A stretch of 64,000 nucleotides of DNA from Trypanosoma brucei (Eukaryota). The stretch lies in contig AE017150.2 in NCBI GenBank assembly GCA_000002445.1, positions 896,001 to 960,000 on the forward strand, given 5' to 3'. The notes beneath the pieces were generated by a model. It did no database searches. It was not told the origin of the DNA and saw nothing but the letters and a program-made list of their open reading frames with translations. Below are positions 1 to 48,593 of the stretch, one piece after another. The first letter of the stretch is position 1. Every line of letters starts with the position of its first letter. Made by a program: the position numbers and the translations under genes.

Positions 1-445
1 TGTCCAAGTCCCGGACAGGATCGAGTTCACCCTCCACATGAGTGATGTCTTCCTCCTCGAAAACACGGATCATATGAATAACACCATCACATTCATTGAT
101 GTGAGATAAGAAAGCATTGCCAAGCCCCTCCCCGTGACTGGCCCCGCGTACCAAGCCAGCAATATCACGTATATGAACCTGTGCTGGGACAACAGACGCC
201 GGCTTGTTAAGCTGCACCAGCTTGTCAAATCTGTCATCCGGAATGTTTATGTCCGCCGTATTAGGATCTATCGTGCAAAACGGACGATTTTCCGCTGGAA
301 CTCCCTTTTTGGATAACACGTTAAAAAATGTGGACTTACCAACGTTCGGGAGCCCAACAATGCCGACCTTCAGATTACTGCCTGGCCGCCCGAGGAGAAC
401 CGTAAGGGACTCCTGTGATTTGTCATCCTTCTTCTTAGGTGGCAT
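1..445 (-). CDS. OLA1: Obg-like ATPase 1 (OLA1/YchF family GTPase/ATPase), N-terminal part; C-terminus lies beyond the left window edge
   Basis: Reverse-strand translation starts [62 protein letters not shown]... This carries the G1 P-loop (GLPNVGKST) and the YchF/OLA1-specific N-terminus. The ATG is at 443-445 (complement). Confidence 0.9.
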
Positions 446-658
446 ATATTTCCTTCCAAATTGAAGTTTAGTTAGCACAATTCAGGCGGCTAAGGGTCAA
501 AAGGGTTGAAACAAAATGAAGAAGGTACTTATTTACAACAAGAAGCACCCAGTACACGCAAATACGCATTTTAAAAAAAAAAAGCGCAACAACTCGATAA
601 GCCTTTGGGTTATATGGATGGCTAACATTGGTAAACGAACGTTATGCCGCCATTTATG

Positions 659-1201
659 TCATAGACTGAATCGAGCAATCGACATATCATTAACTGAGCT
701 CTCTTCTTCATCTCCGGTGAAGTGGGTGACACTGGGTTCTTGTACACCGCTTCCACCATCGGTAGAACTATACGAACGACAAGCGCAGGCACAACAATTG
801 TTTTGTAACAATGCCTTCAACTCCTCTAGCTCCCTCGTTTTCGACGATATGAGGGCCGCGTTTTCGGCAAGGGCCTCCAAAAGAACGCGGTCGTCACCAT
901 CGGCATTTAGGGTGCTAATATCGTTGCTCGATAACGTCTGATGTCTTGTCCCTGAATTACGTCCTTCATCATTCAAGAATTCATTGATGTTAGCGTTGCT
1001 CTCCTTTAGTTTTTGAATATACTTTTCAATTTCTTCGATTTTATATGCAATGATCTCCATTTTATCACCATCCGACACAGGACCAATTAGCTTCCGCGGT
1101 AAAGCGGCGCTCCGTCGGAGCATGAACACACCCGGGAGAACCATATCCCCCCAACCATCACTACCGTCACCCGACATATCCTTTATACTAAAACAACACA
1201 C
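659..1201 (-). CDS. hypothetical coiled-coil protein (180-aa ORF; true start may be an internal Met)
   Basis: ORF on the same strand as the flanking minus-strand genes. It includes a heptad-like segment (EIIAYKIEEIEKYIQKLKESNANINEF). No recognisable domain. A plus-strand ORF (516-941) overlaps it and was judged less likely. Confidence 0.4.
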   Translation of the reverse strand: MCCFSIKDMSGDGSDGWGDMVLPGVFMLRRSAALPRKLIGPVSDGDKMEIIAYKIEEIEKYIQKLKESNANINEFLNDEGRNSGTRHQTLSSNDISTLNADGDDRVLLEALAENAALISSKTRELEELKALLQNNCCACACRSYSSTDGGSGVQEPSVTHFTGDEEESSVNDMSIARFSL

Positions 1202-1387
1202 ACAGATGTATATACCTAGAAAAACGAACGTCTCAACAAAGTGAAAGTTTATGTGTGATATAAAGATAAATTTATATCACAGTGACAATCGCAATAACGC
1301 TCCAAGCAATACAAAGCAAAATGAAAGCTTTAACCTGCACTGAGGCATAATTCAAAAAAAAAACTAAAACTAGATTGCCACACATAT

Positions 1388-2935
1388 CTACAATTTTAAC
1401 TTAGAAATGAGCGAAACACAATCTAGGGCTAACTCAACAGCCCTCACAGACCGCCGAAACTCTTCGCAATCCACCATGTGACCACTTGATACATAAGACC
1501 TACCGCTTCTGTACTGCCCAACAACACTATTTGCATATGACATCGAACTCATCAGCTTAGCGTGATCCTCAGCAATTTTCTCTACCTCCTGGACATACGT
1601 TGCCGGAGGCTCCACCAAAGAGGGGTTAAGACAAATAGCATGTGAAACCAGCACGGCGTGTATGGCGCCAGCAAAGTGCCGAAGGTACGCATTCTGACTA
1701 CCGTGACGGGGTAACCGACGGCAAATATACTCAGCTAAAAACAGACAACATATGCCAACGACCCCGCCGTTGGTATACATCGAACCAGAATACACCTCGT
1801 AGGCGTATTGAGCTGCCTTTTCACACACTTCTAGTAGAGCCAACTTGGTGATGGGATCACCAACGGGAATTACTATTGTCGCCACACTGTTTTTTCCATA
1901 TATCCAAAGCCCTCCCTCTCTTGACAGCGTTGCTCTGCGCACCATTCCGACCTTAAAGAAACCCCGCTTCGCTGATCCAGCGTATTCTGCCCACGCACAA
2001 AACTCGTGCTCGGTATGAAATGGTGTTGCTCCCGTTGCATGCTGGATAGCGTCACAGACACACAACGACAACCGCTCAAGAGAGACTATTCCCATGTCAA
2101 AAAGCAGTTCCTTCAGCTCACAACACATCAGGCGCTGGGATCCCAAGAAACTAACCCCTATACTGCCCACCAACGTTAGAAAGTCCTCCAACACAGCACC
2201 TCTCATCTCAAGTGAGCACGAAAACAGCAGTATACCACCTTCTCTACAGTCACCCTCCAACAGCATTCGTGATTCTATGGGCAAGTTAACAGATATAAAT
2301 ACCCCATCTTCCACATAAACCTCACTCAACTGTGTTTCCACAGATGACAATAAACACTGACTAACTTCTAGCATGTGGGCATCACTCGTTAAAAAGTATA
2401 TATTCTTTTTTTGGATCACAACATTAGAAATAAGTTGCGCAAGAAAGGCACAATCACCTTTTGCCAAAACACCGCAGCTGAGCAAAATCGACTCCACTCC
2501 ATGCAAGCAGCAATGACTAAATGTTGACTTACACCTTTCGGACCACAAGAAGCCGAAATAAGCTTCGTTGGCCCACTCCTTCAGCAACTTTACAGCTTGA
2601 TGCAAATACATACGTTTCCGGTAACAACAACTGACGCCGCCTACAACACCATCTACTGCACCGAAAAGCCTACATACTAAAAAACCAACCAGCAAACGCG
2701 ACGATTCTTCATAAAAATAAACTTCATTTAAACCTGAAGCCCGAGAAAGCAGCAAGGCACCAAAAAGCTGATTACAACTGTCCCCGCTTTGCATCATACT
2801 GTATTTGACAACATAGCTAAACCACGCAGCCTTAACACTAATACCAGAAGAATCAACAAACAAAAAACGTCTACGACGCCCATATACTTCAAAAAAACAT
2901 ATATTTAAAAAAGTTAACAACTCTTTCAAATTCAT
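1388..2935 (-). CDS. hypothetical protein (~515 aa)
   Basis: Long minus-strand ORF running 1388-3028. The most upstream 93 nt (2936-3028) lie inside the SIRE-like repeat, so the start is placed at the MNLKELL Met. No domain recognised by eye. Confidence 0.55.
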   Translation of the reverse strand: MNLKELLTFLNICFFEVYGRRRRFLFVDSSGISVKAAWFSYVVKYSMMQSGDSCNQLFGALLLSRASGLNEVYFYEESSRLLVGFLVCRLFGAVDGVVGGVSCCYRKRMYLHQAVKLLKEWANEAYFGFLWSERCKSTFSHCCLHGVESILLSCGVLAKGDCAFLAQLISNVVIQKKNIYFLTSDAHMLEVSQCLLSSVETQLSEVYVEDGVFISVNLPIESRMLLEGDCREGGILLFSCSLEMRGAVLEDFLTLVGSIGVSFLGSQRLMCCELKELLFDMGIVSLERLSLCVCDAIQHATGATPFHTEHEFCAWAEYAGSAKRGFFKVGMVRRATLSREGGLWIYGKNSVATIVIPVGDPITKLALLEVCEKAAQYAYEVYSGSMYTNGGVVGICCLFLAEYICRRLPRHGSQNAYLRHFAGAIHAVLVSHAICLNPSLVEPPATYVQEVEKIAEDHAKLMSSMSYANSVVGQYRSGRSYVSSGHMVDCEEFRRSVRAVELALDCVSLISKLKL

Positions 2936-2957
2936 ACTAATCACGCTAATACAAACC

Positions 2958-3512
2958 TCATAATCAGACGCAAATCCAACATAGAAAAAGAAAAGGGGAT
3001 AAATCCGGTTAATTCCTCCTTCCGCCACACCAGCAGCACAAACACAACAAAAATGACGAAAAATGATACCAAATCACAACTACAAAAGAAAAAAATAAAA
3101 GTTACGAAACCATCCCGACACCTTGAAACATTTGAACAACACAAATAGCTGCGGGGGCTACGACAACCACAACAACGCAGCAACCAGTGGACCCTCTGAG
3201 GGACGGATGCTCGCACCGCAAAGAAAACTTCGGAGAGCACCACACACACACACACACACCCGTCTGAACCGCTCCCGTCGCGAGAAACAGCCTCCGCCTC
3301 TTCTCAGGTCAAGCACCGCTTAATACCACCGAACCAACATTCCCCACTGCATTCCGCACCCACACCACGGAAACACCACCGTCCAGACACGCTACAACAG
3401 TAAATATGAGTAGGGCCCGTCAAAACACACGGCATCCGGTGGGAAATGCCAACACGTTGCCACAAATTGGCGCAATCATGCAAAAGTCACTACCGCAACA
3501 ACCGAGGGCACT
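2958..3512 (-). mobile_element. SIRE-like short interspersed element, apparently intact solo copy (inverted relative to the copy at 4634-5057 plus 9357-9492)
   Basis: Reverse complement of 3089-3512 matches 4634-5057 base-for-base apart from a few substitutions. Reverse complement of 2958-3088 matches 9357-9492. The contiguous copy therefore equals the two pieces that flank the 4.3-kb internal region of the neighbouring element. Confidence 0.55.
3241..3259. repeat. (CA)9 microsatellite inside the SIRE-like repeat (mirrored as (GT)n at 4888-4906)
   Basis: cacacacacacacacacac seen directly; the mirror copy gtgtgtgtgtgtgtgtgtg lies in the right-hand repeat. Confidence 0.9.
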
Positions 3513-3847
3513 CCAGTAGCCTCAGTTGTCATATCTTCGCTTTTCCTCCCGCTCCTGGAGACACCCTTGCTGTCCCACCAACCGCCTGAATCTACGCGCA
3601 CCTGCCCGCAGACGGCCCTTTTGTCACCGGTTTCCGCCCACACCTGTCACCGCAGCAACAGCCCGCCTATACTCCACGAGCCGGTGCCGGCAGAGGGAAG
3701 TGCCTTGCTTTTCGCATAATGCCACTGAACAAAGTCCCAAGCGAAAACAATGAGGGACAGCCGCACAAGACCGCCCAGTAGCGTAGTGACGGCAGCTCAG
3801 ATAGAGCGCTGCGGACCCAATGGATGCCATGACGGCTCTGAGGTTTA

Positions 3848-3861
3848 CCCCCCCCCCCCCC
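3848..3861 (+). repeat. C14 homopolymer (G14 on the minus strand)
   Basis: aggtttaccccccccccccccgtgg seen directly. Confidence 0.95.
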
Positions 3862-4404
3862 GTGGAGGCAAACTCAGCGAGACCGGGGTCAAAGGGCCCA
3901 CTTGCCTTGTTCTGCCGATAAAACATAGAAAGGCGACAGGTGACCCGCGGCATCTGGTTTCCTGTCAGCAAGGTGGTGTCGACCACTGCAGCCCCATCGT
4001 GCAGTGGGTGCCATTCCCCAGCGTAAGAAAAGCATCGGTTGGGTGTGTGCCCTATCTGGTCCCCGGATGAACCTTCCCAACATATCGCTAGTCACATTCT
4101 TTTGCGGCGACCCACCCTCAAGCCCTTGCTAGCGGCCAAAGCTCTTCAGACACGGGTGTACTGGTACTTGTTGAGGATTTCCCTCACCTTATTCGGGTTC
4201 CATCTTTGGTGCTTCAGTGCGTTAGAAGGTCCGCCATATGCTGGCTCGTTGGGTGCATTTTTCGATACGTAGAACACGGTCTCAACGTCTTATTGGCGAA
4301 GCTCCGGCAAATTGCTATGGGGGCCCAGTGACCGGGCAAAGGTCCTACGTTTGAGGAGTCGCGGCTGACGGGCGACTTTTGAGTACCACATTTCAAAGGA
4401 AAAT

Positions 4405-4414
4405 GGGGGGGGGG
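4405..4414 (+). repeat. G10 homopolymer
   Basis: aaaatggggggggggcggcc seen directly. Confidence 0.95.
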
Positions 4415-4633
4415 CGGCCAGTGATTCAATCGGTTCGTCCGGAACATTAAGTGGCCTTGGAGATGAAATCCTTTACTTGCCTCGGAAGCGACGCAAATCT
4501 CTCACTATAGTTGGGGAGAAATAGCCCTCGCCCCTCCGGCGTCCAAGCTTGCACGCGGAAGTACCCTAAGGGTGACGCTACCTAATCATAGAGGGACAAC
4601 GCATCACAAGAACTTCGAACTGCGGAAAGATAA

Positions 4634-5057
4634 GAGTGCCCTCGGTTGTTGCGGTAGTGACTTTTGCATGATTGCGCCAATTTGTGGCAACGTGTTGGCA
4701 TTTCCCACCGGATGCCGTGTGTTTTGACGGGCCCTACTCATATTTACTGTTGTAGCGTGTCTGGACGGTGGTGTTTCCGTGGTGTGGGTGCGGAATGCAG
4801 TGGGGAATGTTGGTTCGGTGGTATTAAGCGGTGCTTGACCTGAGAAGAGGCGGAGGCTGTTTCTCGCGACGGGAGCGGTTCAGACGGGTGTGTGTGTGTG
4901 TGTGTGGTGCTCTCCGAAGTTTTCTTTGCGGTGCGAGCATCCGTCCCTCAGAGGGTCCACTGGTTGCTGCGTTGTTGTGGTTGTCGTAGCCCCCGCAGCT
5001 ATTTGTGTTGTTCAAATGTTTCAAGGTGTCGGGATGGTTTCGTAACTTTTATTTTTG
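4634..5057 (+). repeat. SIRE-like 5' terminal piece of the composite element (right arm of the inverted repeat)
   Basis: Inverted match to 3089-3512. Confidence 0.7.
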
Positions 5058-5867
5058 TGAGGTTGAGAAAGGAATCGTCCATCCTTACCACTTTCCTTGT
5101 TATTCGTTCTTTCCTTTCTTATATATGCATAGAAAAACTATTACTGAGGAAAGTTTTTTAAAAAGGTAAGTAATCGCTGTAAGTTTTGAGAGATGGTAAC
5201 GACAACCCCTCCAACTATATTGGATGCCGAATGGAAAATAAGTTTGAAAGAAATAAGGACTTTTGTGAAGCAGGGCGGTCGGACCACATTTTCATTCGAC
5301 TATTGTCCCCCTTTTGGAAATACAGCGGTACACGTAGACGGTTTGGTGAGGCTTGAAAATGGAGAGCTTCGAGTGATTTTTGACTAGGCAGCTAAATTTC
5401 GTCGATTTACGGAGCTCGTTGGTTTCCTTCAATATGCCCTAAAACATTGAATTCTTGTGTATGTTCAAAGAAAATAGAGATATGTTTCGTAACGAATGTC
5501 TAGCACTAGAAGCAAATAAGTCTAATTTATACCAACAGTACGAAATGACAAGACCACAAATGAATGATGAGCACTGGAGAATGCAAAACCAGTCGATGGA
5601 ACTGAATAGGCAAGTTGAAAGGTTCATGCAAGAAAATTGTGCTTTGAGAGGGGAAATGGAACAGATGCTCTTCCATAACAATAGGTTAGTAGTTGTCATT
5701 GAATCGATAACACCTGAGTTACACCACTGGAAGATATTAGCAAATACGGACGCCACACATAAAACGGATCCAGTTGTCGAACAAGGGAGAGTAAAGAATG
5801 AATCAGATCAAAAGGAAAAAGGTAGAATAGAAATAAAGTTCCCTTTTGACTCATACAAATCACAGTT

Positions 5868-6440
5868 TTGTCAGAAATCAAGCGGTTAACATGTAAGGAA
5901 CCACAAGGTAGGAATCAGAGGCATTCAGCAGGTAAAAATAGCTTTGTGGGCAAGGGTTTTCCCCCTAAAGAAAACATACGGACGTTTAAAGGGGAGATCG
6001 AATACATGACGGAGACATCACCGGAACAGTTTTTTAACTGCGTACAAAGAATTGTTCCCATTACCACAAAAACCGGATTACGGGTCACAATGCGTCTGGG
6101 AGCAATTTGCGGCGTGGATAAGTGCAGTGGGAGTATAAGGATCTCAGAAGGTGGGATAACAGTCGGGAGGTCGATTCACACTTATCTTCGAGTCTTACAA
6201 ACAGCGAAAGCCCATCCGGGGGTGCGAGTGGAAGCGTTGGCAAAGGCAGTACATGACTCAAGGAGGGACGAGGATCCATACCATCAAGCATACCCAAAAG
6301 TTCAAAAACCGACTTCCCAAGTTAGCAGAATACGATGCTTCCGATGTGGGAAGTTGGAGCACTACAGTGCGTCATGCTTCGTTAAGGATGCCAAGGTTCC
6401 GTGGAAGCCAACAAGCGAATACCGGCCCCGGAAACAGTAA
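5868..6440 (+). pseudogene. gag-like ORF fragment with a CCHC zinc knuckle (retroelement ORF1 remnant)
   Basis: 190-aa ORF containing the CX2CX4HX4C knuckle CFRCGKLEHYSASC. Neighbouring frames carry further fragments (5455-5889, 6253-6708). Confidence 0.55.
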
Positions 6441-6870
6441 GCTTCGGGGCCGAGAAAATATTGGAATCCGTATCCATGGTTACGGGGCCAAGGACCCACA
6501 AGTGGGTAATAGCGAATGGAGAAATGCCACGGAAAACTTGCCGGGTAAAGGTCTGATGGTAGAGGAGGACACAGAGGACACAAAGGGAAGAGAGCCAGCA
6601 AGAGAAACGGCATCCCCAGTTTTGCGCCCTACGAAAACACCGGTAAACGAAGTTATCGTTATAAAACTGGCGACCCACGATCCGGTTATGGCGGCGTGGG
6701 CTTCATAATCGAATTGCATAGCAAGGGTCATGAGGACACAGTCAACTTGGGAGCAGCGGCGGTCGATTCTCAGAAGATTCTGCGAGTTTGCGGCAAAACA
6801 CAACGTGGAGCCAAGTGAGGGGAATGTTCCCATCTTCATTGTGAGTTTGTAACTGGACAAAAGCAGCGCC

Positions 6871-7382
6871 GTGAGGTATACAGGAACTCTTTTGTCGATG
6901 CTGGCAGCGGAAAAGGCACTAGCAAGAATGTTTTTGTTGGGTTTGCAGAGAAAAGTGGAGGAAACACCAATAAAGCAGGCCTGCCCCATGGAGATGTGGG
7001 AGCTGGACATGATAAGCGACACAACGGAACTGGAAAGGGAGCGAGTGGCCATGCGTCTGTCTTGGGTCACTGCCAGTCGTTGGGGAGAGATTGCTTCGCT
7101 GCAAAAGGAAAATTTTGTCGCTCATCCTCAGGACGAGGAGGCACTAATCGTCGACTGGGGGGCATCCCAAAGACATTCAAGTTAGATCCACGCAGAGCAG
7201 CGAGATATGTGGTCATCGCGGGCGAGGACGCCAAAAAGTTGAAGAAAGTCGTAAGGTTGATGGTGGATGAAGAAAAACTAACCACCATCAGCACAAGGGA
7301 CGTGGAAAACATTCTGAAACCTTACGCAATGACGGTACATTCTATAAAAAAAAAAGGGGGTCTCTACCTCATGCGACCGTAG
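6871..7382 (+). pseudogene. tyrosine-recombinase (DIRS/VIPER ORF2-like) fragments, frameshifted
   Basis: LSWVTASRWGEIASLQKENF resembles box I (TGLRxGELxxL). ...YAMTVHSIKKKGGLYLM resembles box II (HxLRH..G). The motifs are in two different frames. Confidence 0.45.
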
Positions 7383-8099
7383 CGGTGGTAGAAAACGACC
7401 TCGACTCACACATTCTGGCCCAGATGGGAAAACACGCGGACCCCATGGAATTTCGTCGGAGCACCACTAGGAATTTAGGGTCGTGGGTGGCAGTGCTAAA
7501 CAAGTAAATTTAACAGTGCTCATGCATAAACGGAGGGTGAGTGGGCCACGTTACTGTGGAAGGTTCAGAATCCAACGATAAAAATAATAGGACAGGACCT
7601 TTATTTCAGAGACACAACATTCTCCGACGCACCCATCAAACCAAGGTCGCCTCGGATACTGAGCAACAGGAGTCACCGTAACAACAGATGAATGTGGAGA
7701 CTTTATCGCTAAAATGGATCAAGTAACGACTGAATAGTCAATATTTACAGCTCTTCAATGATGTTTGGGAGACCATGCGCAGACCGGCCAGGAAAGAAGG
7801 TCGGGAATACGAGCCAAAATTGACGATTTCAGACCAGAATACTATCACCGTGGAAAGAGAGGGTACAATTCAGAAAGTGTCCAACAACCCTACCACGGGT
7901 TGGGCGGTGCCCTTCACGGTAGTTGAAGAGAAGCCAACGGGTTGTCGAGGGCGAATCATTACATGGCCAAAGTCTAAGAATGCACAGGACGATTATGAAG
8001 CTATTGTTCCTCTGGGACACGTGCCACGCTACCTGGATGCTGTCCATGATGAGGGTGCAGCGCTTTGTGATTTAAAAGCTTCGTTTTCTTAAAAGCGGG

Positions 8100-8335
8100 C
8101 TTGCTGATGGACACCCGATCAGGTTTCTTATGCCGGACGGCAGGTGGAAAGCTCGTGGAACTTGCCCGACTTCCTATGGGTTACAAGTGTGGCCCGGGAG
8201 TCTTACACACGGCCCCGTGTGTATTGGCCGGGGACTCTGCAGTAGTGAAAGCTGAATATGCAGCGCCTTCGTAGCTAAAAGTACATGTGTGGATTGATAA
8301 TATTCGTATTAGCAGTCCACGGGAAGTTGTAAACT
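8100..8335 (+). pseudogene. reverse-transcriptase fragment (motif B-like LPMGYKCGPG and motif C-like VWIDNI) with an in-frame stop
   Basis: Frame-0 translation ...VELARLPMGYKCGPGVLHTAPCVLAGDSAVV...(stop)...VWIDNIRISSPREV. The motif spacing of ~35 codons is typical of an RT. Confidence 0.5.
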
Positions 8336-9356
8336 GATGGAACAAGGTGATTAGAAGAAACATGTTACAGCGCGGCGCAACTTCATGGAAAAGCAAGTCC
8401 ATCACCGCACTATATGATTTCATTGGAGTCCACTTTGGTCATGGTTCAAAGATGGTGCCATTGAGCAAAAAAACGGTGCGGAAACTCAGGAGGCTATCCC
8501 ACTGAGAGGGTTACTGTTGACAGTTTGGAGAGCATAGTATCCCGAATGATGTATGCGGCAGGGGCACGGGGAGGTTCTCTGTTCCGACATTTTTTTTTCT
8601 TAAAGATGGTAAGACGGCGCTTGTCGGAGCTCAACAGGTGTGTCTTGGCGCAGAACGACATGGCACGGCTTTCCCTCCAGGCAATCCGCATGGGGCAGGA
8701 GTGACTAAGCGGGTTGATCGAAAAAGAACCCGTTAAGCCGTCAAGGTAATTACCGACTTCTGCAACATCGGTTACCGATGCTTCTATACACGGCTGGTGA
8801 GCTTCACTTTTTAAGGACAATGGGAAAGTATGGGCTTCAGGAGGCCAGCGGGCACAACCTCCACATTGTATCTCTCATACCAAGGCGAGAGCAGTGACAT
8901 TGGCATTGAGAGCTTTTCAGGGCAGCCTGCTTAATAATATTTACGTATGTGTGGATAATACTACAGTTATGCATGTCACGAAAAAAGGTAACACACACTC
9001 CGATGCTTCGGTTCAAGAAGTAAGTTTAATAGATCATGTTTATCTGGAGGAAGGCATCGAGGCTCTTTGGGACTATGTTGTTTCATTAGCGAATTTCGCT
9101 GATGGTATCTCACGGAGGAGGGCGGTTTTTCCATCGGACTTAGCGAAAGGGTGGAACTTGTGATAGGGAGCGCGGGAGGCGGGATGAGAACGCTTTCACC
9201 AATTCCTTATCGTAAGTGTTTTGTTTCTTTCATTGTCTTAATATTGGGAGTTTTACCTACATTGAAAAAGCTTACCGTGATACCCCAAAATTGGCCATTT
9301 AAATAATTATATCTTTATCATAATTCTCTTCTATATGTAGGAGTAGGTAAGGTGCA

Positions 9357-9492
9357 AACTATTCTTTTCTTTTGTAGTTGTGATTTGGTATCATTTTTCG
9401 TCACTTTTGTTGTGTTTGTGCCGCTGGTGTGGCGGAAGGAGGAATTAACCGGATTTATCCCCTTTTCTTTTTCTATGTTGGATTTGCGTCTG
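9357..9492 (+). repeat. SIRE-like 3' terminal piece of the composite element
   Basis: Inverted match to 2958-3088 (ttcttttgtagttgtgatttggtatcatttttcgtca...). Confidence 0.7.
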
Positions 9493-9748
9493 ATTATAAG
9501 ATTCATCCGTGCGTGTTGTATAATTATTGATTGTTTTATGTTTGTAATTGGTTATTTGTTGCTTGTTTCTTATATTGCTCTTTTATTTGCTTCGTTGATA
9601 TGCTCAAATATATTCTTTTACATGTTTGTAGTGTAGTGTAGTTGAAGGAAAGGGTCCTAGTTTGTACCTGAGTATTGTGTTACTCTTTTTTATATATGGG
9701 AAGGAATTGCCAATGCTTATATCTGCCTCCTTTGTGTCTTACCAGCGC

Positions 9749-10378
9749 ATGATCGTTGCAGAACATCGTGTTACGGCTACAATGAAAGGTGTTGTTGATG
9801 TTATGCTCGAGCAGCTTCCTCGTTATGACACTAAAGCCGTCTATCAGTATGATGAAAGCGTGTTTCATTTTCTTGTTGAAAATGAACTTGTGTACGGTTG
9901 TGTCACAGGTGTGGATCACACAAAGCGCGTGGTATTTGAATTTTTGTCACGTATCCGTGATTTCTTTAAAAAAGAGTTTGCTGGTAGCGATAGGCGATAT
10001 CCACGACCCTCGGCTATTTCTTTCAGTGCTTGCAGTAAATTCGGCGCAGTGCTTTCAGATAATATGCGGTCATTCAATGAAACTAATAGTACAGATAAAC
10101 TTGGTGAAATTAATAAACTTGTTGATGATACGAAGCATACAATGTTGGGGAACATAGACGTGCTAATTGATCGCGGGGAGCGAATTGAATTATTGTGTCA
10201 TAAGACGGAAGTGCTTAACACCGGATCCCGTGCTTTTCAGTCCAGTGCTAGGTCGTTAAAGTGGAAAGTGTGTATGGGAAAGATGCGGTTTGTTATTGGG
10301 ACGTTTTTACTTTTCCTTTTCTTTGCGACCATATCTTTCATTTTCATTTGCGGCACTAACCTCAAGTGCAAAAAGTAG
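9749..10378 (+). CDS. longin-domain R-SNARE (VAMP7-like vesicle-associated membrane protein)
   Basis: N-terminal longin-like region (MIVAEHRVTATMKGVV...LVYGCVTGVDHTKRVVFEFLSRIRDFF). R-SNARE motif (KLGEINKLVDDTKHTMLGNIDVLIDRGERIELLCHKTEVLNTGSRAFQSSARSLKWK). C-terminal TM segment (FVIGTFLLFLFFATISFIFI). Confidence 0.8.
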   Translation: MIVAEHRVTATMKGVVDVMLEQLPRYDTKAVYQYDESVFHFLVENELVYGCVTGVDHTKRVVFEFLSRIRDFFKKEFAGSDRRYPRPSAISFSACSKFGAVLSDNMRSFNETNSTDKLGEINKLVDDTKHTMLGNIDVLIDRGERIELLCHKTEVLNTGSRAFQSSARSLKWKVCMGKMRFVIGTFLLFLFFATISFIFICGTNLKCKK

Positions 10379-10512
10379 GAAACACGCTATCACGTAGTCG
10401 GACATTTTTTCATAGTGTAGTTTTTTATAGTTATTTCCACTTTGAAAAAAAAACATTGGTCACTTATTGCAGTTGCAGAGTAAGTGGTATTTGACAGATA
10501 CCTGCTGTTTTA

Positions 10513-11778
10513 TTGCATTATCTTTCGGGTCTTATCACTAAAAAGCAAAAAGAAGCTATACAAGGAAAGGGAAACTTGTCAAGGAAGTCCATTCTAAAAG
10601 AACCTATGGTGGTTACTTTGGTGGAACCAACGAAATGGGCTAATTTAATAGAGGAATACCCAGACACTCTTTATTCTTCCGAATCGGCAAAGAATGTTGA
10701 AAATGTACTCTCGAAAACGTCTACGAGGAGGCACCAAAAAGTGCTGTTCAACGCCGCCAAACCCTTTATGCCAAAAATGATACACGATTGCATTGGTACT
10801 TCGATTCTGAACTCTCTTGTTAAGTATGGTACTGTTACTACCGTCGACGGCGTTTGCAAAATAGTTTTCGAGTCTTGTGAAAAAATTCTGAGATGCCGAT
10901 GCAGCCCTGAAAATCAACGAATTGAATCGTTGGGTTCGCTTTTGGAACGCATTGTTTACCGCTACGACTGTTTGGGTAATTACCGGCAAAACATCATCGA
11001 AGTACTGAAGTCTCTAAGGCCCTCACAGCTTATGGGCACCCCTGTGCTCTTGTTGGCTGCCGCGCGACTGTTAATTCAAAATAGGGATTTTGCATCTTTG
11101 GTTCTGACAAATAGTGAGGCTCGAACGGAGTTTTTTTCAGCCTCCTTAGTAAGAACGAATAGGGGCGTCGTATCTGCTTTCTGCAAAATTCTTTTATCAG
11201 AAGATGCTTTAAAGGACGGTGAAATGACTGGTCTTTGTTCGGCGTTTATTTTCGATTCCTTTTCCGGATTGTATGAACCAAAAGCCACGCTGCGACCGAT
11301 GAAAGACATAACACTACTACTGGCTAGCTGCGGTTCCATTGATGGGGTCCGAAATCTCGGGAAAAGTCTGGCGCGTTGGCCGGATATTCACGGTAGGGCA
11401 AAGGGTGATGATTATGCCAAAATTGTGGCTCATATTTTATCCCGCCTACCTGATACCGACAGCGGATTGCCGCTTGTTAAGGCAGTTCTTCACTCTGAAG
11501 AGGATATAAATGATCGACTTCGTTGTCGCAAATCATCTCATTTGCATCTTCTCGCTTCAATTGCTGAAAAGCAGTCGTACGTTCAAGTTCTCTCAGAGGC
11601 ATTGGGTACTTCTGTGGAAAAGAAGCTTGCGAGTGCTGTTGTGCAGTACCGAAGAGTGACGAAACCACGAGTGGTTTCGACAAAAGAGTTGCTTTCCCGA
11701 AAGCTTGCCGATATGCGGAAAGGCTCCGGGGAGAATGACAGCGCGCGTAACGTTTCCAAGAGATTCCGTGAATGGTAA
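10513..11778 (+). CDS. hypothetical protein (421-aa ORF; start may be the internal Met at 10606)
   Basis: Long ORF co-directional with its neighbours. No recognisable motif. Confidence 0.55.
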   Translation: MHYLSGLITKKQKEAIQGKGNLSRKSILKEPMVVTLVEPTKWANLIEEYPDTLYSSESAKNVENVLSKTSTRRHQKVLFNAAKPFMPKMIHDCIGTSILNSLVKYGTVTTVDGVCKIVFESCEKILRCRCSPENQRIESLGSLLERIVYRYDCLGNYRQNIIEVLKSLRPSQLMGTPVLLLAAARLLIQNRDFASLVLTNSEARTEFFSASLVRTNRGVVSAFCKILLSEDALKDGEMTGLCSAFIFDSFSGLYEPKATLRPMKDITLLLASCGSIDGVRNLGKSLARWPDIHGRAKGDDYAKIVAHILSRLPDTDSGLPLVKAVLHSEEDINDRLRCRKSSHLHLLASIAEKQSYVQVLSEALGTSVEKKLASAVVQYRRVTKPRVVSTKELLSRKLADMRKGSGENDSARNVSKRFREW

Positions 11779-11942
11779 TGAATATCCTTACTATATATAT
11801 AGCGTTTAGTTTGTCATGGTGTTGAGGGATCATGTGATATTGTGTTATTGCCATTTTTAAAAAAAGTCCTGTACTTAACGCATTACATTTCTCCCCTCCC
11901 TCCTTTCCCCTACGGGAGTGGCAAAAAGGTTTAAAAGGCAGA

Positions 11943-12392
11943 ATGAAGCGTGTAGCTCAGAGTGCCCTTATCGCACGGTCGTGTGGGACATTTCTGTGCT
12001 CGAGGCGATGCAGCTTACTTGAACACAGGACGAAAGGCTCCATGTTCATGAAGCATTTAGATTTATATGCTAGACGGGATCCCCAGCTGGCTCCTTACTT
12101 GCTTAGGGAAGTTGACATAGAATATAAGAGGAGGTGTCGAAAGGTCTCGTTTTGTGCATGGATATGCGTATTTACCGCTGTAACTGCAGTGCAAATTCGT
12201 ATGCAAAGTGAGCAGTTGCACTACATGCGTTTGTACGCCGATTGTGTAGAAGCTGAGCAACGCGCTAAGGATGAGGATGGGATCCGGCGAAGGAAGGCAC
12301 TTGTTGCATTGATGAACGTTGCGAAAGATGCATTCGGTCGGAATCAGTCATGGGGTAATGAAGATCAAGAAAAGGCTCTCAAAGAATTGTGA
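11943..12392 (+). CDS. small hypothetical protein (149 aa) with one predicted hydrophobic helix
   Basis: The ORF is the only evidence. Hydrophobic stretch VSFCAWICVFTAVTAVQI. It sits alone in a 1.4-kb gap between genes. Confidence 0.3.
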   Translation: MKRVAQSALIARSCGTFLCSRRCSLLEHRTKGSMFMKHLDLYARRDPQLAPYLLREVDIEYKRRCRKVSFCAWICVFTAVTAVQIRMQSEQLHYMRLYADCVEAEQRAKDEDGIRRRKALVALMNVAKDAFGRNQSWGNEDQEKALKEL

Positions 12393-14654: not shown

Positions 14655-14853
14655 ATGGAAACTTTTAATCTGTGTGACTCAGTCGGGGGGGGGGAAGTGC
14701 TTTTTCGTGCTAATTTTTAGTTGAGCATATGCGGCTTTGTGTTTCGCGTCTCTGCCGGTTTCTGGCGTGTTGCGTTGGTTTTCCGCTCCTTTCCAAACTT
14801 CAGTGTCGTTGCTTTTTTTTTTTTGATCCTTTTGCGTGTGGATGCAAGCAAGG

Positions 14854-42171: not shown

Positions 42172-43190
42172 ATGTAGACTTACGCGATGTACCAAATGCA
42201 AAACTTCTTAGGAAAGGAGAAGAGCTGTGTAGAAATATATATATTTAGTTGTGATAGAAAAAGATGAAGAGTAGATCAGACTGCTAGTTTATTGTGTACC
42301 TCCGTGTTGTTGGTGTTTGTCTGATGTGGTTTCGTACTCCCCCCCCCCGTTTCCATCACTTTGAATGTTTATATTTGCATTTGAAACCCCTATAGTCGAT
42401 ACCCCGCCTCGCACGCACTGCAGTTTGCAATGTGAAGATGGAATGGACGATTGTATCAAACCCCTTTTTCTATTACTAATGGGTTTTGACATGTACACTA
42501 CCACAGCACGTGTGTTCTTGAACGATAGCATGTCACCCCACCTTCCTCCCTCCGCCTCTTCCCTGCTTGATGCTTCTTGTTTCACTTCATAGTAGTAGTA
42601 GTTTCTTACCTCTATGCTAGGTTGTGTTGTGCGCCTACACGCCTCTTGCCGCTGTGAAGCTCACCATACCACCAGCGGGTGTGAGACGGCAGTCGCCGCT
42701 AACCGGCCATTTGTCGCAATGTGGAGGGAAAGAAGTGGTTGTGGCAGCAGACTAGCGGGGGAGCGCATGCGGAATCAGTGGGAATGAACACTTTCCAATG
42801 CCGTTGCAACTATTTTACTGCTTCTTCCTGTATGCATATATATATATATAATTTTCTTCCTTCACTGTAGACGGATGTCTTTCATTGTCACGGTACTTTA
42901 AGTGACCAAACCAGACTATCTTACTGTTCCATGTTTCTCTGCTTCTGACATAGTACGGTAAATACTATAGTAAACGCTTTTTAGAGATACATAAAGGAGG
43001 GGGATAATAAAAGTGGCAAACGCAGCATAGATAGTATTTGGTTTATCGTTGGCAGCCGTTGAAGGGTGGGTGAGTTTTGAAGTGCCGTTACGTACACCGA
43101 CCGCGTAGCCTAGTACCTGGTTCATTTAAAGGAGGAAAAGGAGAACGGAAGTATTATTCATCCCATCTCCCCTCTCGTCAGCTCATTTCG

Positions 43191-45299
43191 ATGCGCGTTG
43201 TATACCAGCGTTTCTTCCCGGTGCTTCTTCTTTTACTCAGCCTTGAGCACCTCTGCAGCCGACATGCGTGCGCGGACGAAGGAGAGGAAGGAGGCGTGAA
43301 TCACACAGTGGGAGGCAACCTTACGGGCACGCATTCGTACCGTTCGCCATCTCTGCTTTCCATAGGCGATTCACTTGTCACCGTGTCCGAAACATGGGAT
43401 CCGTCGGACACGGAGCAGTACGTTGACGTGATTACCGAGTATAGCGCCCATTACGGGGCCCCGGCAGTAACACAGGTGGCGGTGCGTAACGATACGTTGG
43501 ATTTTCATGCTGTGTATAAGCATAAGGAGGACCGTGAAAGTACGATGCACCCCACCGCTGTTGCGATAGACGGAATGATATTTGTCCTTATATTTTGCAA
43601 AAATATAGGTGCCAGTGGCAACCAAACGGGAGACGCAGTGATCATGCCGCATGTAGCCAAGGGTGTGGTGTTACCAGGCGGCGCGACGGGCAACGTGTGG
43701 GTAAACTGGACGCAGCTGATGCCCATCAGATCACTGCTTCCCAAAGTTATCGAGGGGAAGAGAGTTAGTATGTTTTTTGGTGGCGGTGGGAATACTATTG
43801 TGATGACGAAGGGGACGCTTGTCATGCCTGTGCAAATGGTAAGAACGGACGATCAACGGTTCGCCACGATTATATACTCCTCAAACAACGGCACCAGCTG
43901 GACCGTTGCAAAAGGTTTCACGGATTCAGGGTGTAGGGAGTCCTCAGTTCTTATCTGGAAGCGTAAAATGCTTCTTGTTGCGCGGTCCGACGATGGTTAT
44001 ACTAAAGTGTTTGAATCGGACTACATGGGCGACGTATGGACGGAGTCCCTCGGGACAATATCTCGAGTATTAGGAAATTCACCCGATCGGAGAGGGCCTG
44101 GAAATCAGGGTAGTGCCATCACCATCCCTCTCGGAAACGAGACGGTTATGTTTTTCACTCAAACAACCGTATCCAATAGCTCTGACAGCAATGAGGGAGA
44201 CATTAATCGAATCGACCAGCGCATCTGGTTTAGCGATGGCAGCCGCATGGTTAAGGTCGGACACATTTACTGGAACGACCACTTATCAAGCAGCCGTAGT
44301 TATCTTTTGTACTCCAACAATAGGCTCTTGTGTGCCTACGAGATGGGTGCAGAGAAGGCGTATGCTATCACCGTCAGGAGCCTGGTTGGTGAATTGGAAA
44401 ATGCAAGATTTGCGCGAGAGACGTGGGCGAGACAGGATGCATATATCTCAGGTATATGCTCTTCAGCGAAGGAAAGCGCACCCTGTGCGAGCGGTGTTCC
44501 CGTAGATGGCCTTGTTGGGCTCCTTTCCAGCATGGTAAACGGGACTGCGTGGGTGGATGCTTATTTTTCTGTGAACGCTAACTTCGTTGGAGGTTTGGCC
44601 GGCCCTGCGGGTCTGACATTTGAAGGAACAGCACGCGGGGGTCGGTGGCCTGTTGGTGTGCAGGGGCAGAATCAACGATTTCACTTCGCCAACACTCATT
44701 TCACGCTGGTGCTGACACTGACAATTCATGAGCAAACTGCACCTAGAGCTCCAGTGCTTGTTACACGTCTTTACGAGAATGGGAGCTACATAGACTTGGA
44801 ATTCTCATACACAGATGACAAGAGATGGCATATAAAGTATGGTGCGGAATACGGCTCGACATCTGGGCAATGGGCGTTAAACCAAGAACACCAGTTAGCA
44901 TTTGTGCTCCGTGGTGGTACTATCGCTGTGTATCTCGACGGGAAACGTATGCCAACGATGGCAAGGATGTTAGCAGGAAACGGTAATCTGCTCAACATCA
45001 CCCATTTTTATATTGGTGGCTATGGCACGGTAAAGCAAAGCCCCAGAGACAGGTTAACCATACGAAACGCTATGCTGTACAACCGCCCATTGAAAAAGGC
45101 AGAGATCGACAAGTTGTTCGCAGCGAAAAGCGGGATAACCGCTGCAACAAAAGGCATAGAACCACTCACACCCAAGTGGAATCATAAAACCAAAGACCTT
45201 GAACCGCAGAGTGGTGATGGGCGCGCAGACCACGCGTTCCGTACCCCTTCATGGGCATTACCTTTGTTTGTTCTGCACTTATATTCCCTATTTATGTAA
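43191..45299 (+). CDS. trans-sialidase-like surface protein (predicted catalytically inactive family member) with N-terminal signal peptide and C-terminal hydrophobic GPI-type signal
   Basis: Signal peptide MRVVYQRFFPVLLLLLSLEHLCS. Degenerate Asp box SSNNGTSW. The family-defining VTVxNVxLYNR motif is present as LTIRNAMLYNRPL. A hydrophobic C-terminus (WALPLFVLHLYSLFM). No FRIP motif seen. Confidence 0.8.
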   Translation: MRVVYQRFFPVLLLLLSLEHLCSRHACADEGEEGGVNHTVGGNLTGTHSYRSPSLLSIGDSLVTVSETWDPSDTEQYVDVITEYSAHYGAPAVTQVAVRNDTLDFHAVYKHKEDRESTMHPTAVAIDGMIFVLIFCKNIGASGNQTGDAVIMPHVAKGVVLPGGATGNVWVNWTQLMPIRSLLPKVIEGKRVSMFFGGGGNTIVMTKGTLVMPVQMVRTDDQRFATIIYSSNNGTSWTVAKGFTDSGCRESSVLIWKRKMLLVARSDDGYTKVFESDYMGDVWTESLGTISRVLGNSPDRRGPGNQGSAITIPLGNETVMFFTQTTVSNSSDSNEGDINRIDQRIWFSDGSRMVKVGHIYWNDHLSSSRSYLLYSNNRLLCAYEMGAEKAYAITVRSLVGELENARFARETWARQDAYISGICSSAKESAPCASGVPVDGLVGLLSSMVNGTAWVDAYFSVNANFVGGLAGPAGLTFEGTARGGRWPVGVQGQNQRFHFANTHFTLVLTLTIHEQTAPRAPVLVTRLYENGSYIDLEFSYTDDKRWHIKYGAEYGSTSGQWALNQEHQLAFVLRGGTIAVYLDGKRMPTMARMLAGNGNLLNITHFYIGGYGTVKQSPRDRLTIRNAMLYNRPLKKAEIDKLFAAKSGITAATKGIEPLTPKWNHKTKDLEPQSGDGRADHAFRTPSWALPLFVLHLYSLFM

Positions 45300-46560: not shown

Positions 46561-46616
46561 TTCTATTGTCACTGTTGCATTTCCCCTTTACTGACACGCT
46601 CTTCCCTCTTTCCCGC
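46561..46616 (+). promoter_or_regulatory. polypyrimidine tract upstream of each array ORF, a candidate trans-splicing signal repeated in every unit
   Basis: ttccccttta(c)tgacacgctcttccctctttcccgc lies 45-60 nt upstream of each ATG (46660, 48594, 50522, 52441, 54366, 56306, 58246, 60186). Confidence 0.45.
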
Positions 46617-46659
46617 ATATGTGTGTATTTGATAAACTCATAAGGAAGCAACACTGACA

Positions 46660-47763: not shown

Positions 47764-48593
47764 TATTAGCGTCACATCGTGTATCACATGGGTGGTGGTT
47801 GAGTGATGTTTAGGATCAAGTGGGGTAATGAATACTGTACCGCTTTCATCCTACGTTACGGACCGTCACAATTTCTAGCTTCGTGTATTGTTTCACTTCC
47901 TATTATTACTTTCAGTAGTGCTCAATACTTCATTGTTTCATATAATTATTACTTTTATGTTCCTAATATTAACGGTCTCCTTGTACCATGTTGGCTCTGC
48001 GAGGGACTTCCGATGTGTGGCATCACTTCCCTCCGACCACATCATTGTTCTTTTAGTGTGTGACCCATTGAACCATCTTTACTGTTTGATGTCCCATTGT
48101 TTCGTTGTTGTTAGTGTTGATTATTTATTTCGTGTGTGGGTGTCATGTTTAGTTCGCGTTATTTCATGTTTTACTTCCATGTATATGTGGGAGGCTTGTA
48201 GGTCCTCCCTGTTACGTGTGATGTATTGCTATACGTGTAACTTGCAGCACTTAATTATTTTAAAAACCTGTACGACGCTGTGTTAAACGAGAGTTCCATA
48301 GTGTTCAATCCCTGCGTTATAGTTGGTCCATTATGATAATAAATGTTTTGAGTACCTGTGTCTCACTAACCAATTTGTTGGGATATGTGATATGGCTGCT
48401 CTCTTCCATTATTATTTGTGTTATCCTTTTCATATTTCTTGTTTATTATCCTCGAGTGTATGTGTGATTATTTGATATCTTGTGTAACTCCTTTTTCTAT
48501 TGTCACTGTTGCATTTCCCCTTTACTCACACGCTCTTCCCTCTTTCCCGCATATGTGTGTATTTGATAGACTCATAAGGAAGCAACACTGACA

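What the first reader, a model, noticed from the sequence alone, without database searches (positions are those of the whole stretch)
3848..4414. Outward-facing G-runs (G14 on the minus strand, G10 on the plus strand) in the strand-switch core are candidate bidirectional transcription-start landmarks
The unique core holds C14 at 3848-3861 (G14 as read by leftward transcription) and G10 at 4405-4414 (read by rightward transcription). They lie ~545 bp apart, each on the coding strand of the transcription unit it faces. In Leishmania and trypanosomes, divergent transcription start regions lack canonical promoters but have been associated with G-tracts and specific chromatin. A symmetric pair of homopolymer G-tracts oriented with the two diverging polycistrons is a striking fit.
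Basis: inference. Interest (0 to 1): 0.55.

Follow-up and report, generated by a model that had tools for sequence, protein, structure and literature searches.

The report
Known G-run signature at trypanosome promoter
The two outward-facing runs of G are real and sit at a documented two-way transcription start region of Trypanosoma brucei chromosome 2, but they are a local example of a published signature (G-runs on the coding strand at the upstream edge of start regions), so the finding is correct and ordinary; the surrounding palindrome whose centre is flipped in a sister strain is the less expected part.

Summary
In detail: C14 at 3848-3861 and G10 at 4405-4414, 543 nt apart, each a G-run on the coding strand of the unit it faces. 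The window is T. brucei TREU927 chromosome 2, 896001-960000. The region is the divergent strand-switch between Tb927.2.5080 and Tb927.2.5120, which Kolev et al. 2010 list as the start of two divergent RNA polymerase II units.

The interpretation matches published genome-wide data. In Wedel et al. 2017, GGGGGGGGGG is the most strand-biased 10-mer in the 5' fifth of 199 start regions (132 coding versus 17 non-coding). Scanning the window with their 157 10-mers gives 0 plus/19 minus hits left of the centre and 13 plus/0 minus right of it, with the switch between the two G-runs.

So the runs are the innermost elements of two outward-facing GT-rich promoter-like halves. The larger part of each half is a 423-nt perfect inverted repeat. 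Function at this locus is untested. Such tracts are neither necessary nor sufficient, vary in length between strains, and are absent from the 2.1 kb available upstream in T. congolense.

Novelty: already known. Side observation: the 1.1-kb core is inverted in T. equiperdum IVM-t1, and the repeat arms evolve in concert.

The parts
3848..3861 (-). G14 run, read on the minus strand. It is on the coding (non-template) strand of the leftward unit that starts with Tb927.2.5080. It is the innermost left-facing start-region-type element.
   Evidence: It gives 6 hits to Wedel EV1 10-mers (GGGGGGGGGG x5, CGGGGGGGGG), all on the minus strand. Its length is 14/16/15 in TREU927 / DAL972 / IVM-t1.
4405..4414 (+). 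G10 run on the coding strand of the rightward unit (Tb927.2.5120 to Tb927.2.5360). It is the innermost right-facing start-region-type element.
   Evidence: It matches the EV1 10-mers GGGGGGGGGG and GGGGGGGGGC on the plus strand. Its length is 10/9/11 in the three strains.
3514..4633 (.). 1120-nt non-coding core of the strand-switch region. It has almost no strand skew (G+T 0.48). The minimum of cumulative GC skew lies at about 4100-4300, between the tracts. The core is found in the opposite orientation in T. equiperdum IVM-t1.
   Evidence: No Rfam family, tRNA or Pfam match. Inversion.
3091..3513 (-). Left inner arm of the inverted repeat. On the minus (coding) strand it is GT-rich and holds a (GT)9 microsatellite and several start-region-type 10-mers.
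   Evidence: 423 nt, 100% complementary to 4634-5056. The whole left arm 2954-3513 has G+T 0.69 on the minus strand. EV1 hits on the minus strand only.
4634..5056 (+). Right inner arm of the inverted repeat. It is GT-rich on the plus (coding) strand.
   Evidence: G+T 0.68. EV1 10-mers CGGTGGTGTT, GTGGGTGCGG, GGTGTGTGTG, GTGTGTGTGG, GTGTGTGGTG and GTTGTTGTGGTT occur on the plus strand only.
2954..3097 (-). Left outer arm of the inverted repeat. It abuts the Tb927.2.5080 start codon (2935) and contains a mapped spliced-leader acceptor site at 2956.
   Evidence: 144 nt, 97% to 9360-9503. Kolev Tables S1 and S12 mapped with offset 896000.
9360..9503 (+). Right outer arm of the inverted repeat, separated from its inner arm by a retroelement. 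It is overlain by the short non-coding transcript Tb2.NT.50 (window 9341-9521), the first trans-spliced RNA of the + unit.
5057..9359 (+). 4303-bp degenerate retroelement inserted into the right arm. It is not part of the promoter signature, but it now lies between the G10 run and the first splice site of the + unit.
   Evidence: CCHC zinc knuckle in ORF 5868-6440 (E = 0.0014, below Pfam's cut-off). A 7-bp duplicated target TATTTTT / TATTCTT. Present in all three strains.

Best explanation
The two G-runs are the innermost elements of the two halves of a bidirectional, 'dispersed' RNA polymerase II start region. This region lies between Tb927.2.5080 and Tb927.2.5120 on T. brucei chromosome 2.

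Each half consists of a G-run followed, further out, by a roughly 560-nt GT-rich block, which is one arm of the inverted repeat. All of this lies on the non-template (coding) strand of the unit it serves.

Inferred mechanism: long dG:dC and GT-rich stretches are stiff and disfavour nucleosomes. Placed in one orientation, they favour outward initiation and deposition of H2A.Z-containing, unstable nucleosomes. The G-runs would therefore mark the upstream (5') edge of each start region rather than a single start nucleotide.

What is shown: position, strand, local excess, the perfect strand partition of start-region 10-mers, and the published status of the locus as a divergent start. What is inferred: that these particular tracts contribute to initiation or directionality.
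For: Locus identity:
- Window proteins are identical to TREU927 XP_951683, XP_951685 and XP_951687.
- Window coordinate = chromosome 2 coordinate minus 896000. This follows from the Tb927.2.5080 ORF (898935..897388 = window 2935..1388) and from the Tb927.2.5120 splice site 905632 plus its 81-nt 5' UTR, which gives the ATG at window 9713.
- Kolev 2010 Table S14 lists 5080->3340 (-) and 5120->5360 (+) as 'Divergent' pol II units.

Published signature:
- Wedel 2017 locates primary transcripts and pol II at the 5' end of H2A.Z regions with a 4:1 sense bias. They find the strand-biased 10-mers there to be long G or T stretches.
- In Dataset EV1, GGGGGGGGGG scores 132 coding versus 17 non-coding in region 1, and 7, 27, 19 and 18 in regions 2-5.
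- Synthetic GT-rich elements drive orientation-dependent transcription and H2A.Z deposition and are nucleosome-depleted.

This window:
- EV1 10-mers give 0 plus/19 minus hits in 2936-4100 and 13 plus/0 minus in 4101-5056.
- The same 10-mers give 17/22 and 23/27 in the bodies of the + unit.
- The cumulative GC-skew minimum lies between the tracts.
- The arms are 0.68-0.69 G+T on the coding strand.

Other species and strains:
- In L. major, G-tracts of 10 nt or more were the only motif at TBP/SNAP50 peaks of divergent strand-switch regions.
- Both tracts are kept in three T. brucei-group genomes, in both core orientations.
- In T. theileri the 5 kb upstream of the 5080 orthologue is GT-rich on the coding strand, with EV1 hits 29:10.
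Against: - No start-site, pol II or H2A.Z coordinates for this locus were available, so nothing places initiation at the tracts.
- The EV1 10-mers were derived from all start regions of strain 427, which include the orthologue of this locus. The scan is therefore partly circular. Hits in the two arms are also not independent, because the arms are copies of each other.
- The window has a G10 and a C10 inside the + unit, the latter with G on the non-coding strand.
- G5+ and C5+ runs are balanced in the unit body (37:35).
- The 2.1 kb upstream of the T. congolense orthologue has no G/C run of 7 or more and no GT bias.
- Conservation among T. brucei-group strains is uninformative, because the whole core is about 99% identical.
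- Sequence-specific core promoters have since been reported in T. brucei (Cordon-Obras 2022, as summarised) and could be the true determinants.
Confidence: 0.6

Rival explanations
1. The tracts are neutral, slippage-prone homopolymers that accumulate in unconstrained, nucleosome-poor non-coding DNA. Their outward orientation is either coincidence (1 in 4) or a by-product of transcription-associated strand-asymmetric mutation. On this view they are a consequence of divergent transcription, not a signal for it.
For: - Tract lengths differ in every strain compared (14/16/15 and 10/9/11), while the rest of the core shows only point changes and one 3-nt indel.
- Comparable runs occur inside the unit, one in the opposite sense.
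- No tract is present in the available T. congolense upstream sequence.
- GC skew follows the direction of transcription over the whole window.
- Thomas 2009 judged G-tracts unlikely to be sufficient.
Against: [quoted passage not shown] It is concentrated in the 5' fifth of start regions rather than along units, which a general mutational skew does not predict.
- Within the + unit of this window, G5+ and C5+ runs are balanced (37:35).
- Synthetic elements built from such 10-mers have orientation-dependent promoter activity.
Confidence: 0.25
2. Initiation is set by short sequence-specific core promoters located elsewhere in the strand-switch region, for example in the arms. The G-runs act only as passive boundary or spacer elements between two oppositely oriented promoters.
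For: - Divergent strand-switch regions are reported to contain two oppositely oriented, orientation-dependent core promoters (Cordon-Obras 2022, as summarised).
- The perfectly duplicated arms would supply two identical copies in opposite orientation.
- The core can be flipped without changing the arms.
Against: The published promoter motif could not be retrieved, so it could not be searched for. G10 remains the single most enriched directional 10-mer at start-region 5' ends.
Confidence: 0.1
3. The tracts matter for DNA structure rather than for transcription. They would act as G-quadruplex or R-loop-prone sites that mark a replication origin or a recombination hot spot at the strand-switch region.
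For: - ORC1/CDC6 binds all strand-switch regions, and about 45 of them act as origins (introduction of Briggs 2018).
- R-loops are enriched at divergent start regions.
- The locus is recombinationally active: arm homogenisation and core inversion.
Against: - There is no canonical quadruplex motif on either strand anywhere in the window. G14 is one base short of G3N1G3N1G3N1G3, and G9-11 cannot form one alone.
- Briggs 2018 found no R-loop difference between origin and non-origin strand-switch regions and no clear dependence on GC skew.
- The inversion is explained by the 423-nt arms without any role for the tracts.
Confidence: 0.05

Closest known systems
Coding-strand G-runs / GT-rich dispersed promoters of T. 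brucei pol II transcription start regions (Wedel et al. 2017, EMBO J; earlier noted by Siegel et al. 2009, Genes Dev, the latter from my own memory because the paper was not held)
   Same: Same organism and same kind of site. G10 or longer lies on the coding strand at the inner (5') edge of each of two divergent start regions. GT-rich 10-mers of the published list accompany it, with complete strand partition.
   Different: Nothing essential differs. The local peculiarities are that most of the GT-rich sequence is a perfect inverted duplication, that the core carrying the runs is flipped in one strain, and that a retroelement separates the right half from its first gene.
G/C-tracts in Leishmania major divergent strand-switch regions (the 73-bp chr1 region with two tracts; Thomas et al. 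2009, BMC Genomics)
   Same: Tracts of 10 nt or more lie between divergent polycistronic units. They are the only motif recovered near TBP/SNAP50 peaks and are conserved among close species.
   Different: A different genus. In L. major the two tracts lie within 73 bp, whereas here they are 543 nt apart. Protein binding was not examined here. The authors themselves doubted sufficiency.
Poly(dA:dT) / poly(dG:dC) nucleosome-excluding tracts of yeast and metazoan dispersed (CpG-island-like) promoters
   Same: Stiff homopolymer tracts that disfavour nucleosomes and help open a broad initiation zone (the reasoning is quoted).
   Different: No nucleosome map was examined for this locus. Trypanosome start regions serve polycistronic units and lack known activators.
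Inverted-repeat-flanked invertible segments (flip-flop isomers of plastid genomes and the yeast 2-micron plasmid; spacer inversion with arm homogenisation by template switching, PMC8604942 abstract)
   Same: Perfect arms, concerted evolution of the arms, and the spacer seen in both orientations in related genomes.
   Different: Each orientation is seen in only one or two assemblies. No within-population heterogeneity, dedicated recombinase or phenotypic consequence is shown.

Membership tests
T. brucei start-region coding-strand G-run / GT-rich promoter signature (Wedel 2017) | Lies in a region where RNA pol II initiation of a polycistronic unit has been mapped | tested here: met
   Kolev 2010 Table S14 lists Tb927.2.5080->3340 (-) and Tb927.2.5120->5360 (+) as divergent units. 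The window maps to chr2 896001-960000.
T. brucei start-region coding-strand G-run / GT-rich promoter signature (Wedel 2017) | G-run of at least 10 on the coding (non-template) strand of the downstream unit | tested here: met
   G14 on the minus strand faces the minus-strand unit, and G10 on the plus strand faces the plus-strand unit.
T. brucei start-region coding-strand G-run / GT-rich promoter signature (Wedel 2017) | Accompanied by other coding-strand-biased GT-rich 10-mers, with the bias confined to the start region | tested here: met
   0/19 and 13/0 (plus/minus) hits in the two halves, against 17/22 and 23/27 in unit bodies. This is partly circular, because the list was derived from all start regions of strain 427.
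T. brucei start-region coding-strand G-run / GT-rich promoter signature (Wedel 2017) | Position in the 5' fifth of the H2A.Z-enriched region, where primary transcripts peak | not testable with these tools
   No ChIP-seq or 5'-triphosphate RNA coordinates were available. Only indirect support exists: the tracts are the innermost directional elements.
T. brucei start-region coding-strand G-run / GT-rich promoter signature (Wedel 2017) | Orientation-dependent promoter activity and H2A.Z recruitment in a reporter | not testable with these tools
   This is an experimental test. It has been shown only for synthetic elements and two other start regions.
Leishmania-type strand-switch G/C-tracts (Thomas 2009) | Conserved across related species at the orthologous strand-switch region | tested here: inconclusive
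   Kept in three T. brucei-group genomes, but these are about 99% identical overall. Not found in the 2.1 kb available for T. congolense. In T. theileri the upstream region is GT-rich, with only a G12 4.5 kb upstream. The T. grayi contig ends 281 nt upstream.
Canonical intramolecular G-quadruplex motif (G3+N1-7)x3G3+ | Four G3+ tracts with loops of 1-7 nt | tested here: not met
   A regex scan of both strands of the whole window found none. G14 is one base short. The DAL972 (16) and IVM-t1 (15) alleles would just qualify.
Inverted-repeat-mediated invertible segment | Long, near-identical inverted repeats flanking the segment | tested here: met
   423 nt, 100% complementary in TREU927. The arms are about 100% complementary, apart from (GT)n length, in DAL972 and IVM-t1.
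Inverted-repeat-mediated invertible segment | Both orientations exist | tested here: inconclusive
   The core is collinear in TREU927 and DAL972 and reverse-complemented in IVM-t1, with breakpoints inside the arms. There is one assembly per state or lineage and no read-level check. The short-read OVI contig stops at the arm/core junction.
Inverted-repeat-mediated invertible segment | Ongoing exchange between the arms | tested here: met
   Two substitutions differ between strains but are the same in both arms of each strain. The outer arms, 6.3 kb apart, keep fixed left/right differences.

The most novel reading that the evidence does not exclude
The strand-switch region is a recombinationally active palindrome. 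Its 1.1-kb promoter core would flip recurrently between the two orientations through exchange between the 423-nt arms.

Because the start-region signal is 'C-run left, G-run right', it reads the same after inversion, so flipping is tolerated. Each flip does swap the long (14-16) and short (9-11) G-runs, and their different spacings, between the two polycistronic units. That could shift the relative strength or start zone of the two units. If so, this would be an invertible bidirectional pol II promoter in a eukaryote thought to lack transcriptional control.
Probability: 0.08. Interest if true: 0.65.

Novelty: already known. Interest (0 to 1): 0.27.

Why it matters
How RNA polymerase II chooses where and in which direction to start polycistronic units in trypanosomes is still only partly understood. 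This locus adds no new principle, because it is a clean instance of the published coding-strand G-run / GT-rich signature.

Its practical value is as a test bed:
- The two halves are exact mirror copies.
- The G-runs are the only strongly directional elements in the unskewed core.
- Nature may already have provided the inverted-core allele. A comparison of nascent transcription between the two orientations could separate the contribution of the G-runs from that of the arms.

Tried and rejected
- **Known RNAs and coding potential.** Rfam (E up to 1) and ARAGORN found nothing in 1-12000 or in the window. Pfam found nothing in the core ORFs. A hidden RNA or protein gene in the core is therefore rejected.
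- **Quadruplex reading.** There is no canonical motif in the window.
- **Orthologous strand-switch regions in distant species.**
  - In the environmental kinetoplastid contigs (L003-L007) another same-strand gene lies upstream of VAMP, so there is no strand switch at that position.
  - The T. grayi contig stops 281 nt upstream.
  - The T. congolense contig gives only 2.1 kb.
  - The T. theileri locus lacks the VAMP side.
- **More haplotypes for the inversion.** Exact look-ups of three TREU927 proteins found no contig on record. The T. equiperdum OVI contigs break in the retroelement (L002) and at the arm/core junction (L015). The Logan contigs were 2 kb.
- **Are the arms a dispersed repeat family?** Several non-trivial EV1 10-mers that occur in the arms have counts of 6-7. 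A protein search with the arm ORF found nothing, and BLAST within the window found only the known copies. This remains unresolved.
- **Retroelement identity.** There is only a sub-threshold CCHC hit, and no reverse transcriptase or recombinase domain was detected.
- **Literature.** Siegel 2009, Maree & Patterton 2014 and Cordon-Obras 2022 are not held. No paper on palindromic or invertible strand-switch regions in T. brucei was found.

Full report
**Observation.** The + strand carries C14 at 3848-3861 and G10 at 4405-4414, as reported, with 543 nt between them. Exact G10 on either strand occurs at four loci in the 64 kb, whereas 100 dinucleotide-preserving shuffles gave a mean of 0.05 matches. 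Two of the four loci lie in one 1120-nt segment. The other two, G10 at 14685-14694 and C10 at 42339-42348, are intergenic inside the long plus-strand gene cluster. Long G/C homopolymers are therefore far above random expectation everywhere, and are locally concentrated in the finding's region.

**What the locus is.**
- ORFs run on the minus strand up to about 3028 and on the plus strand from 9662 to the end of the window.
- The gene content points to an African trypanosome: VAMP/longin, RPAP3-like TPR, DnaJ, a 4246-aa ORF that I take to be a dynein heavy chain (my own reading, not tested), a trans-sialidase, and an eight-copy array with the IGP C-type-lectin domain.
- Three window proteins are identical to T. 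brucei brucei TREU927 XP_951683, XP_951685 and XP_951687 on the 1,193,948-bp chromosome.
- Kolev et al. 2010 (PMC2936537) give the Tb927.2.5080 ORF as 898935..897388. They place the main spliced-leader site of Tb927.2.5120 at 905632, with an 81-nt 5' UTR. These correspond to window 2935..1388 and to the VAMP ATG at 9713. The window is therefore chr2 (v4) 896001-960000.
- Their Table S14 lists Tb927.2.5080->3340 (-) and Tb927.2.5120->5360 (+) as 'Divergent' pol II units. This strand-switch is thus a documented bidirectional start region.
- The first mapped splice-acceptor sites are at window 2956 and 2837 on the left. On the right the first is at 9341 (non-coding transcript Tb2.NT.50, 9341-9521), followed by 9632.

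**Anatomy.**
- The core 3514-4633 is bounded by a 423-nt, 100% complementary inverted repeat, 3091-3513 / 4634-5056. A further 144 nt of the same palindrome, 2954-3097 / 9360-9503, is 97% complementary.
- The right arm is split by a 4303-bp insertion at 5057-9359. It is full of broken ORFs, one with a weak CCHC zinc-knuckle hit, and is flanked by a 7-bp duplication (TATTTTT / TATTCTT).
- The core has no Rfam, tRNA or Pfam match and almost no strand skew (G+T 0.48).
- The arms are 0.68-0.69 G+T on the strand that is coding for the unit they face.
- Cumulative GC skew reaches its minimum at about 4100-4300, between the two tracts.

**Comparison with published signatures.**
- Wedel et al. 2017 (PMC5579346) showed that primary 5'-triphosphate transcripts and pol II peak at the 5' end of H2A.Z-marked start regions, with a 4:1 sense bias.
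- They also showed that the 10-mers over-represented on the coding strand there are mostly long G or T stretches.
- Synthetic elements built from these 10-mers drive orientation-dependent transcription, recruit H2A.Z and are nucleosome-depleted.
- In their Dataset EV1, GGGGGGGGGG heads the list. It occurs 132 times on the coding strand and 17 times on the non-coding strand in the 5' fifth of 199 start regions, against 7, 27, 19 and 18 in the other fifths.
- I scanned the window with all 157 listed 10-mers:

| Region (window) | plus-strand hits | minus-strand hits |
|---|---|---|
| 2936-4100 (left half of the strand-switch region) | 0 | 19 |
| 4101-5056 (right half) | 13 | 0 |
| 9713-46000 (+ unit body) | 17 | 22 |
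| 46001-64000 (IGP array) | 23 | 27 |

- The last minus-strand hit is at the C14 tract and the first plus-strand hit is at the G10 tract, so the strand of the signature flips between them.
- Two cautions apply. The list was derived from all start regions of strain 427, which includes the orthologue of this locus. The two arms are also copies of one another, so their hits are not independent.
- In L. major, Thomas et al. 2009 (PMC2679053) found G-tracts of 10 nt or more to be the only motif near TBP/SNAP50 peaks in divergent strand-switch regions. They also noted that such tracts are spread through the genome and that almost half of start sites lack them.
- From memory, Siegel et al. 2009 first noted strand-specific G-runs at T. 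brucei start sites. That paper was not held, although Wedel et al. cite it for the G-to-C skew.

**Related genomes.**

| Genome | Core orientation | Left tract | Right tract |
|---|---|---|---|
| TREU927 (window) | reference | C14 | G10 |
| T. b. gambiense DAL972 (L008) | collinear | C16 | G9 |
| T. equiperdum IVM-t1 (L001) | inverted | C11 | G15 |

- In IVM-t1, window 3091-5056 matches L001 5343-3355 at 98.1%, while the flanks stay collinear up to the arm ends.
- The inverted IVM-t1 core is the TREU927 core reverse-complemented, with one extra base in each tract. A 'C-run left, G-run right' layout reads the same after inversion, so the tracts face outward in both states.
- Core identity among the three genomes is 98.8-99.7%. 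Retention of the tracts therefore says little about constraint, and their lengths differ in every genome.
- Further out, the evidence is thin:
  - The 2.1 kb upstream of the T. congolense orthologue of 5080 has no G/C run of 7 or more and no GT bias.
  - The T. theileri orthologue has a GT-rich coding strand upstream (G+T 0.6-0.7; EV1 hits 29:10 over 5 kb), but only a G12 4.5 kb away.
  - The T. grayi contig ends 281 nt upstream.
  - In an environmental kinetoplastid, another same-strand gene lies upstream of VAMP.

**Mechanism.** The best-supported reading is that the two runs mark the upstream edges of two outward-facing dispersed promoters. The bulk of each promoter is a GT-rich arm. The proposed action is nucleosome exclusion and orientation-dependent promotion of initiation and H2A.Z deposition. 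This is taken from experiments on synthetic GT-rich elements and on two other T. brucei start regions and from general DNA mechanics. It is an inference for this locus. R-loops are enriched at divergent start regions (Briggs 2018), which fits a G-rich non-template strand, but that study saw no clear dependence on GC skew.

A quadruplex reading is weak. The window has no canonical motif, and G14 is one base short of the minimal single-tract form.

The main rival is that the runs are neutral slippage products. Their orientation would then be chance or a consequence of transcription. Their length polymorphism, the two runs inside the unit (one in the 'wrong' sense) and the T. congolense result all fit this rival. 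The genome-wide 132:17 bias concentrated at start-region 5' ends argues against it. A further possibility is that sequence-specific core promoters, reported in 2022, lie in the arms and do the real work. I could not retrieve the motif to test this.

**Side finding.** Within each genome the inner arms are identical apart from (GT)n length. Two substitutions distinguish TREU927 from the other two strains in both arms at once. The outer arms, now 6.3 kb apart because of the retroelement, keep fixed left/right differences in all three genomes. That pattern indicates continuing exchange between the inner arms. It makes the inversion seen in IVM-t1 plausible as biology rather than misassembly. It still rests on one assembly, and short-read contigs break at the arm/core junction. 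I found no report of palindromic or invertible strand-switch regions in T. brucei in the library searched.

**Verdict.** The feature is already known as a class, and this locus belongs to the published data sets. Interest is low to moderate. The palindrome with a possibly invertible core is the only part that might repay further work.

Noticed in passing
window 2954-3513 and 4634-5056 + 9360-9503: The strand-switch region is a large palindrome. The inner arms are 423 nt and 100% complementary; the outer 144 nt are 97% complementary. Both divergent units therefore begin with the same GT-rich sequence and the same first splice-site region. The inner arms show concerted evolution across three strains, and the outer arms do not.
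   Followed up: yes
window 3514-4633 versus L001 3786-4910 (T. equiperdum IVM-t1, CM010673.1): The 1.1-kb core between the arms is reverse-complemented in IVM-t1 relative to TREU927 and T. b. gambiense DAL972, with breakpoints inside the arms. It could be a real inversion polymorphism or flip-flop, or an assembly choice. No read-level check was possible.
   Followed up: partly
window 5057-9359: A 4303-bp degenerate retroelement splits the right arm. It has many broken ORFs, a sub-threshold CCHC zinc knuckle in ORF 5868-6440, no terminal repeats of 30 nt or more, and a probable 7-bp target duplication (TATTTTT / TATTCTT). It is present in all three T. brucei-group genomes. Its family was not identified. 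Some peptide stretches look like tyrosine-recombinase/RNase H elements of the VIPER/DIRS type, but this is only an impression.
   Followed up: partly
window 9341-9521: The published 180-nt non-coding, trans-spliced and polyadenylated transcript Tb2.NT.50 (chr2 905341-905521) coincides with the outer right arm. Its splice acceptor lies in the last 19 nt of the retroelement. It is probably a by-product of the duplicated 5' region of Tb927.2.5080.
   Followed up: partly
window 2837-2956: The major spliced-leader site of Tb927.2.5080 (chr2 898837) lies inside the annotated ORF, whose ATG is at window 2935. Kolev et al. list the gene among those with a misannotated start codon.
   Followed up: no
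window 14685-14694 and 42339-42348: Two further runs of 10 lie inside the plus-strand unit. G10 lies between the RPAP3-like and DnaJ genes (G on the coding strand). [quoted passage not shown] Neither is listed as an internal start site in Kolev Table S14.
   Followed up: partly
window 3241-3259 and 4888-4906; L008 3471-3523 and 5154-5194: The (CA)n/(GT)n microsatellite inside the arms has 9 units in TREU927. It is much longer in DAL972, and unequal between the two arms there. It is the only place where the arms of one genome differ.
   Followed up: partly
window 46660-61295: Eight tandem copies, with a period of about 1.93 kb, of a 362-369-aa gene with the IGP-family C-type lectin domain (DUF5075), preceded by a trans-sialidase gene (43077-45299). 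By position and count these correspond to Tb927.2.5290-5360 and Tb927.2.5280; this assignment rests on gene counting, not on a look-up.
   Followed up: no
window 4766-4793, 4971-4982 (and mirror positions 3354-3381, 3165-3176): Several non-repetitive 10-mers of the Wedel list that occur 6-7 times genome-wide in start-region 5' ends (CGGTGGTGTT, GTGGGTGCGG, GTTGTTGTGGTT) are found in the arms. This hints that arm-like sequence may be present at a few other start regions. A protein-level search with the arm ORF found nothing, and the genome itself could not be searched.
   Followed up: partly
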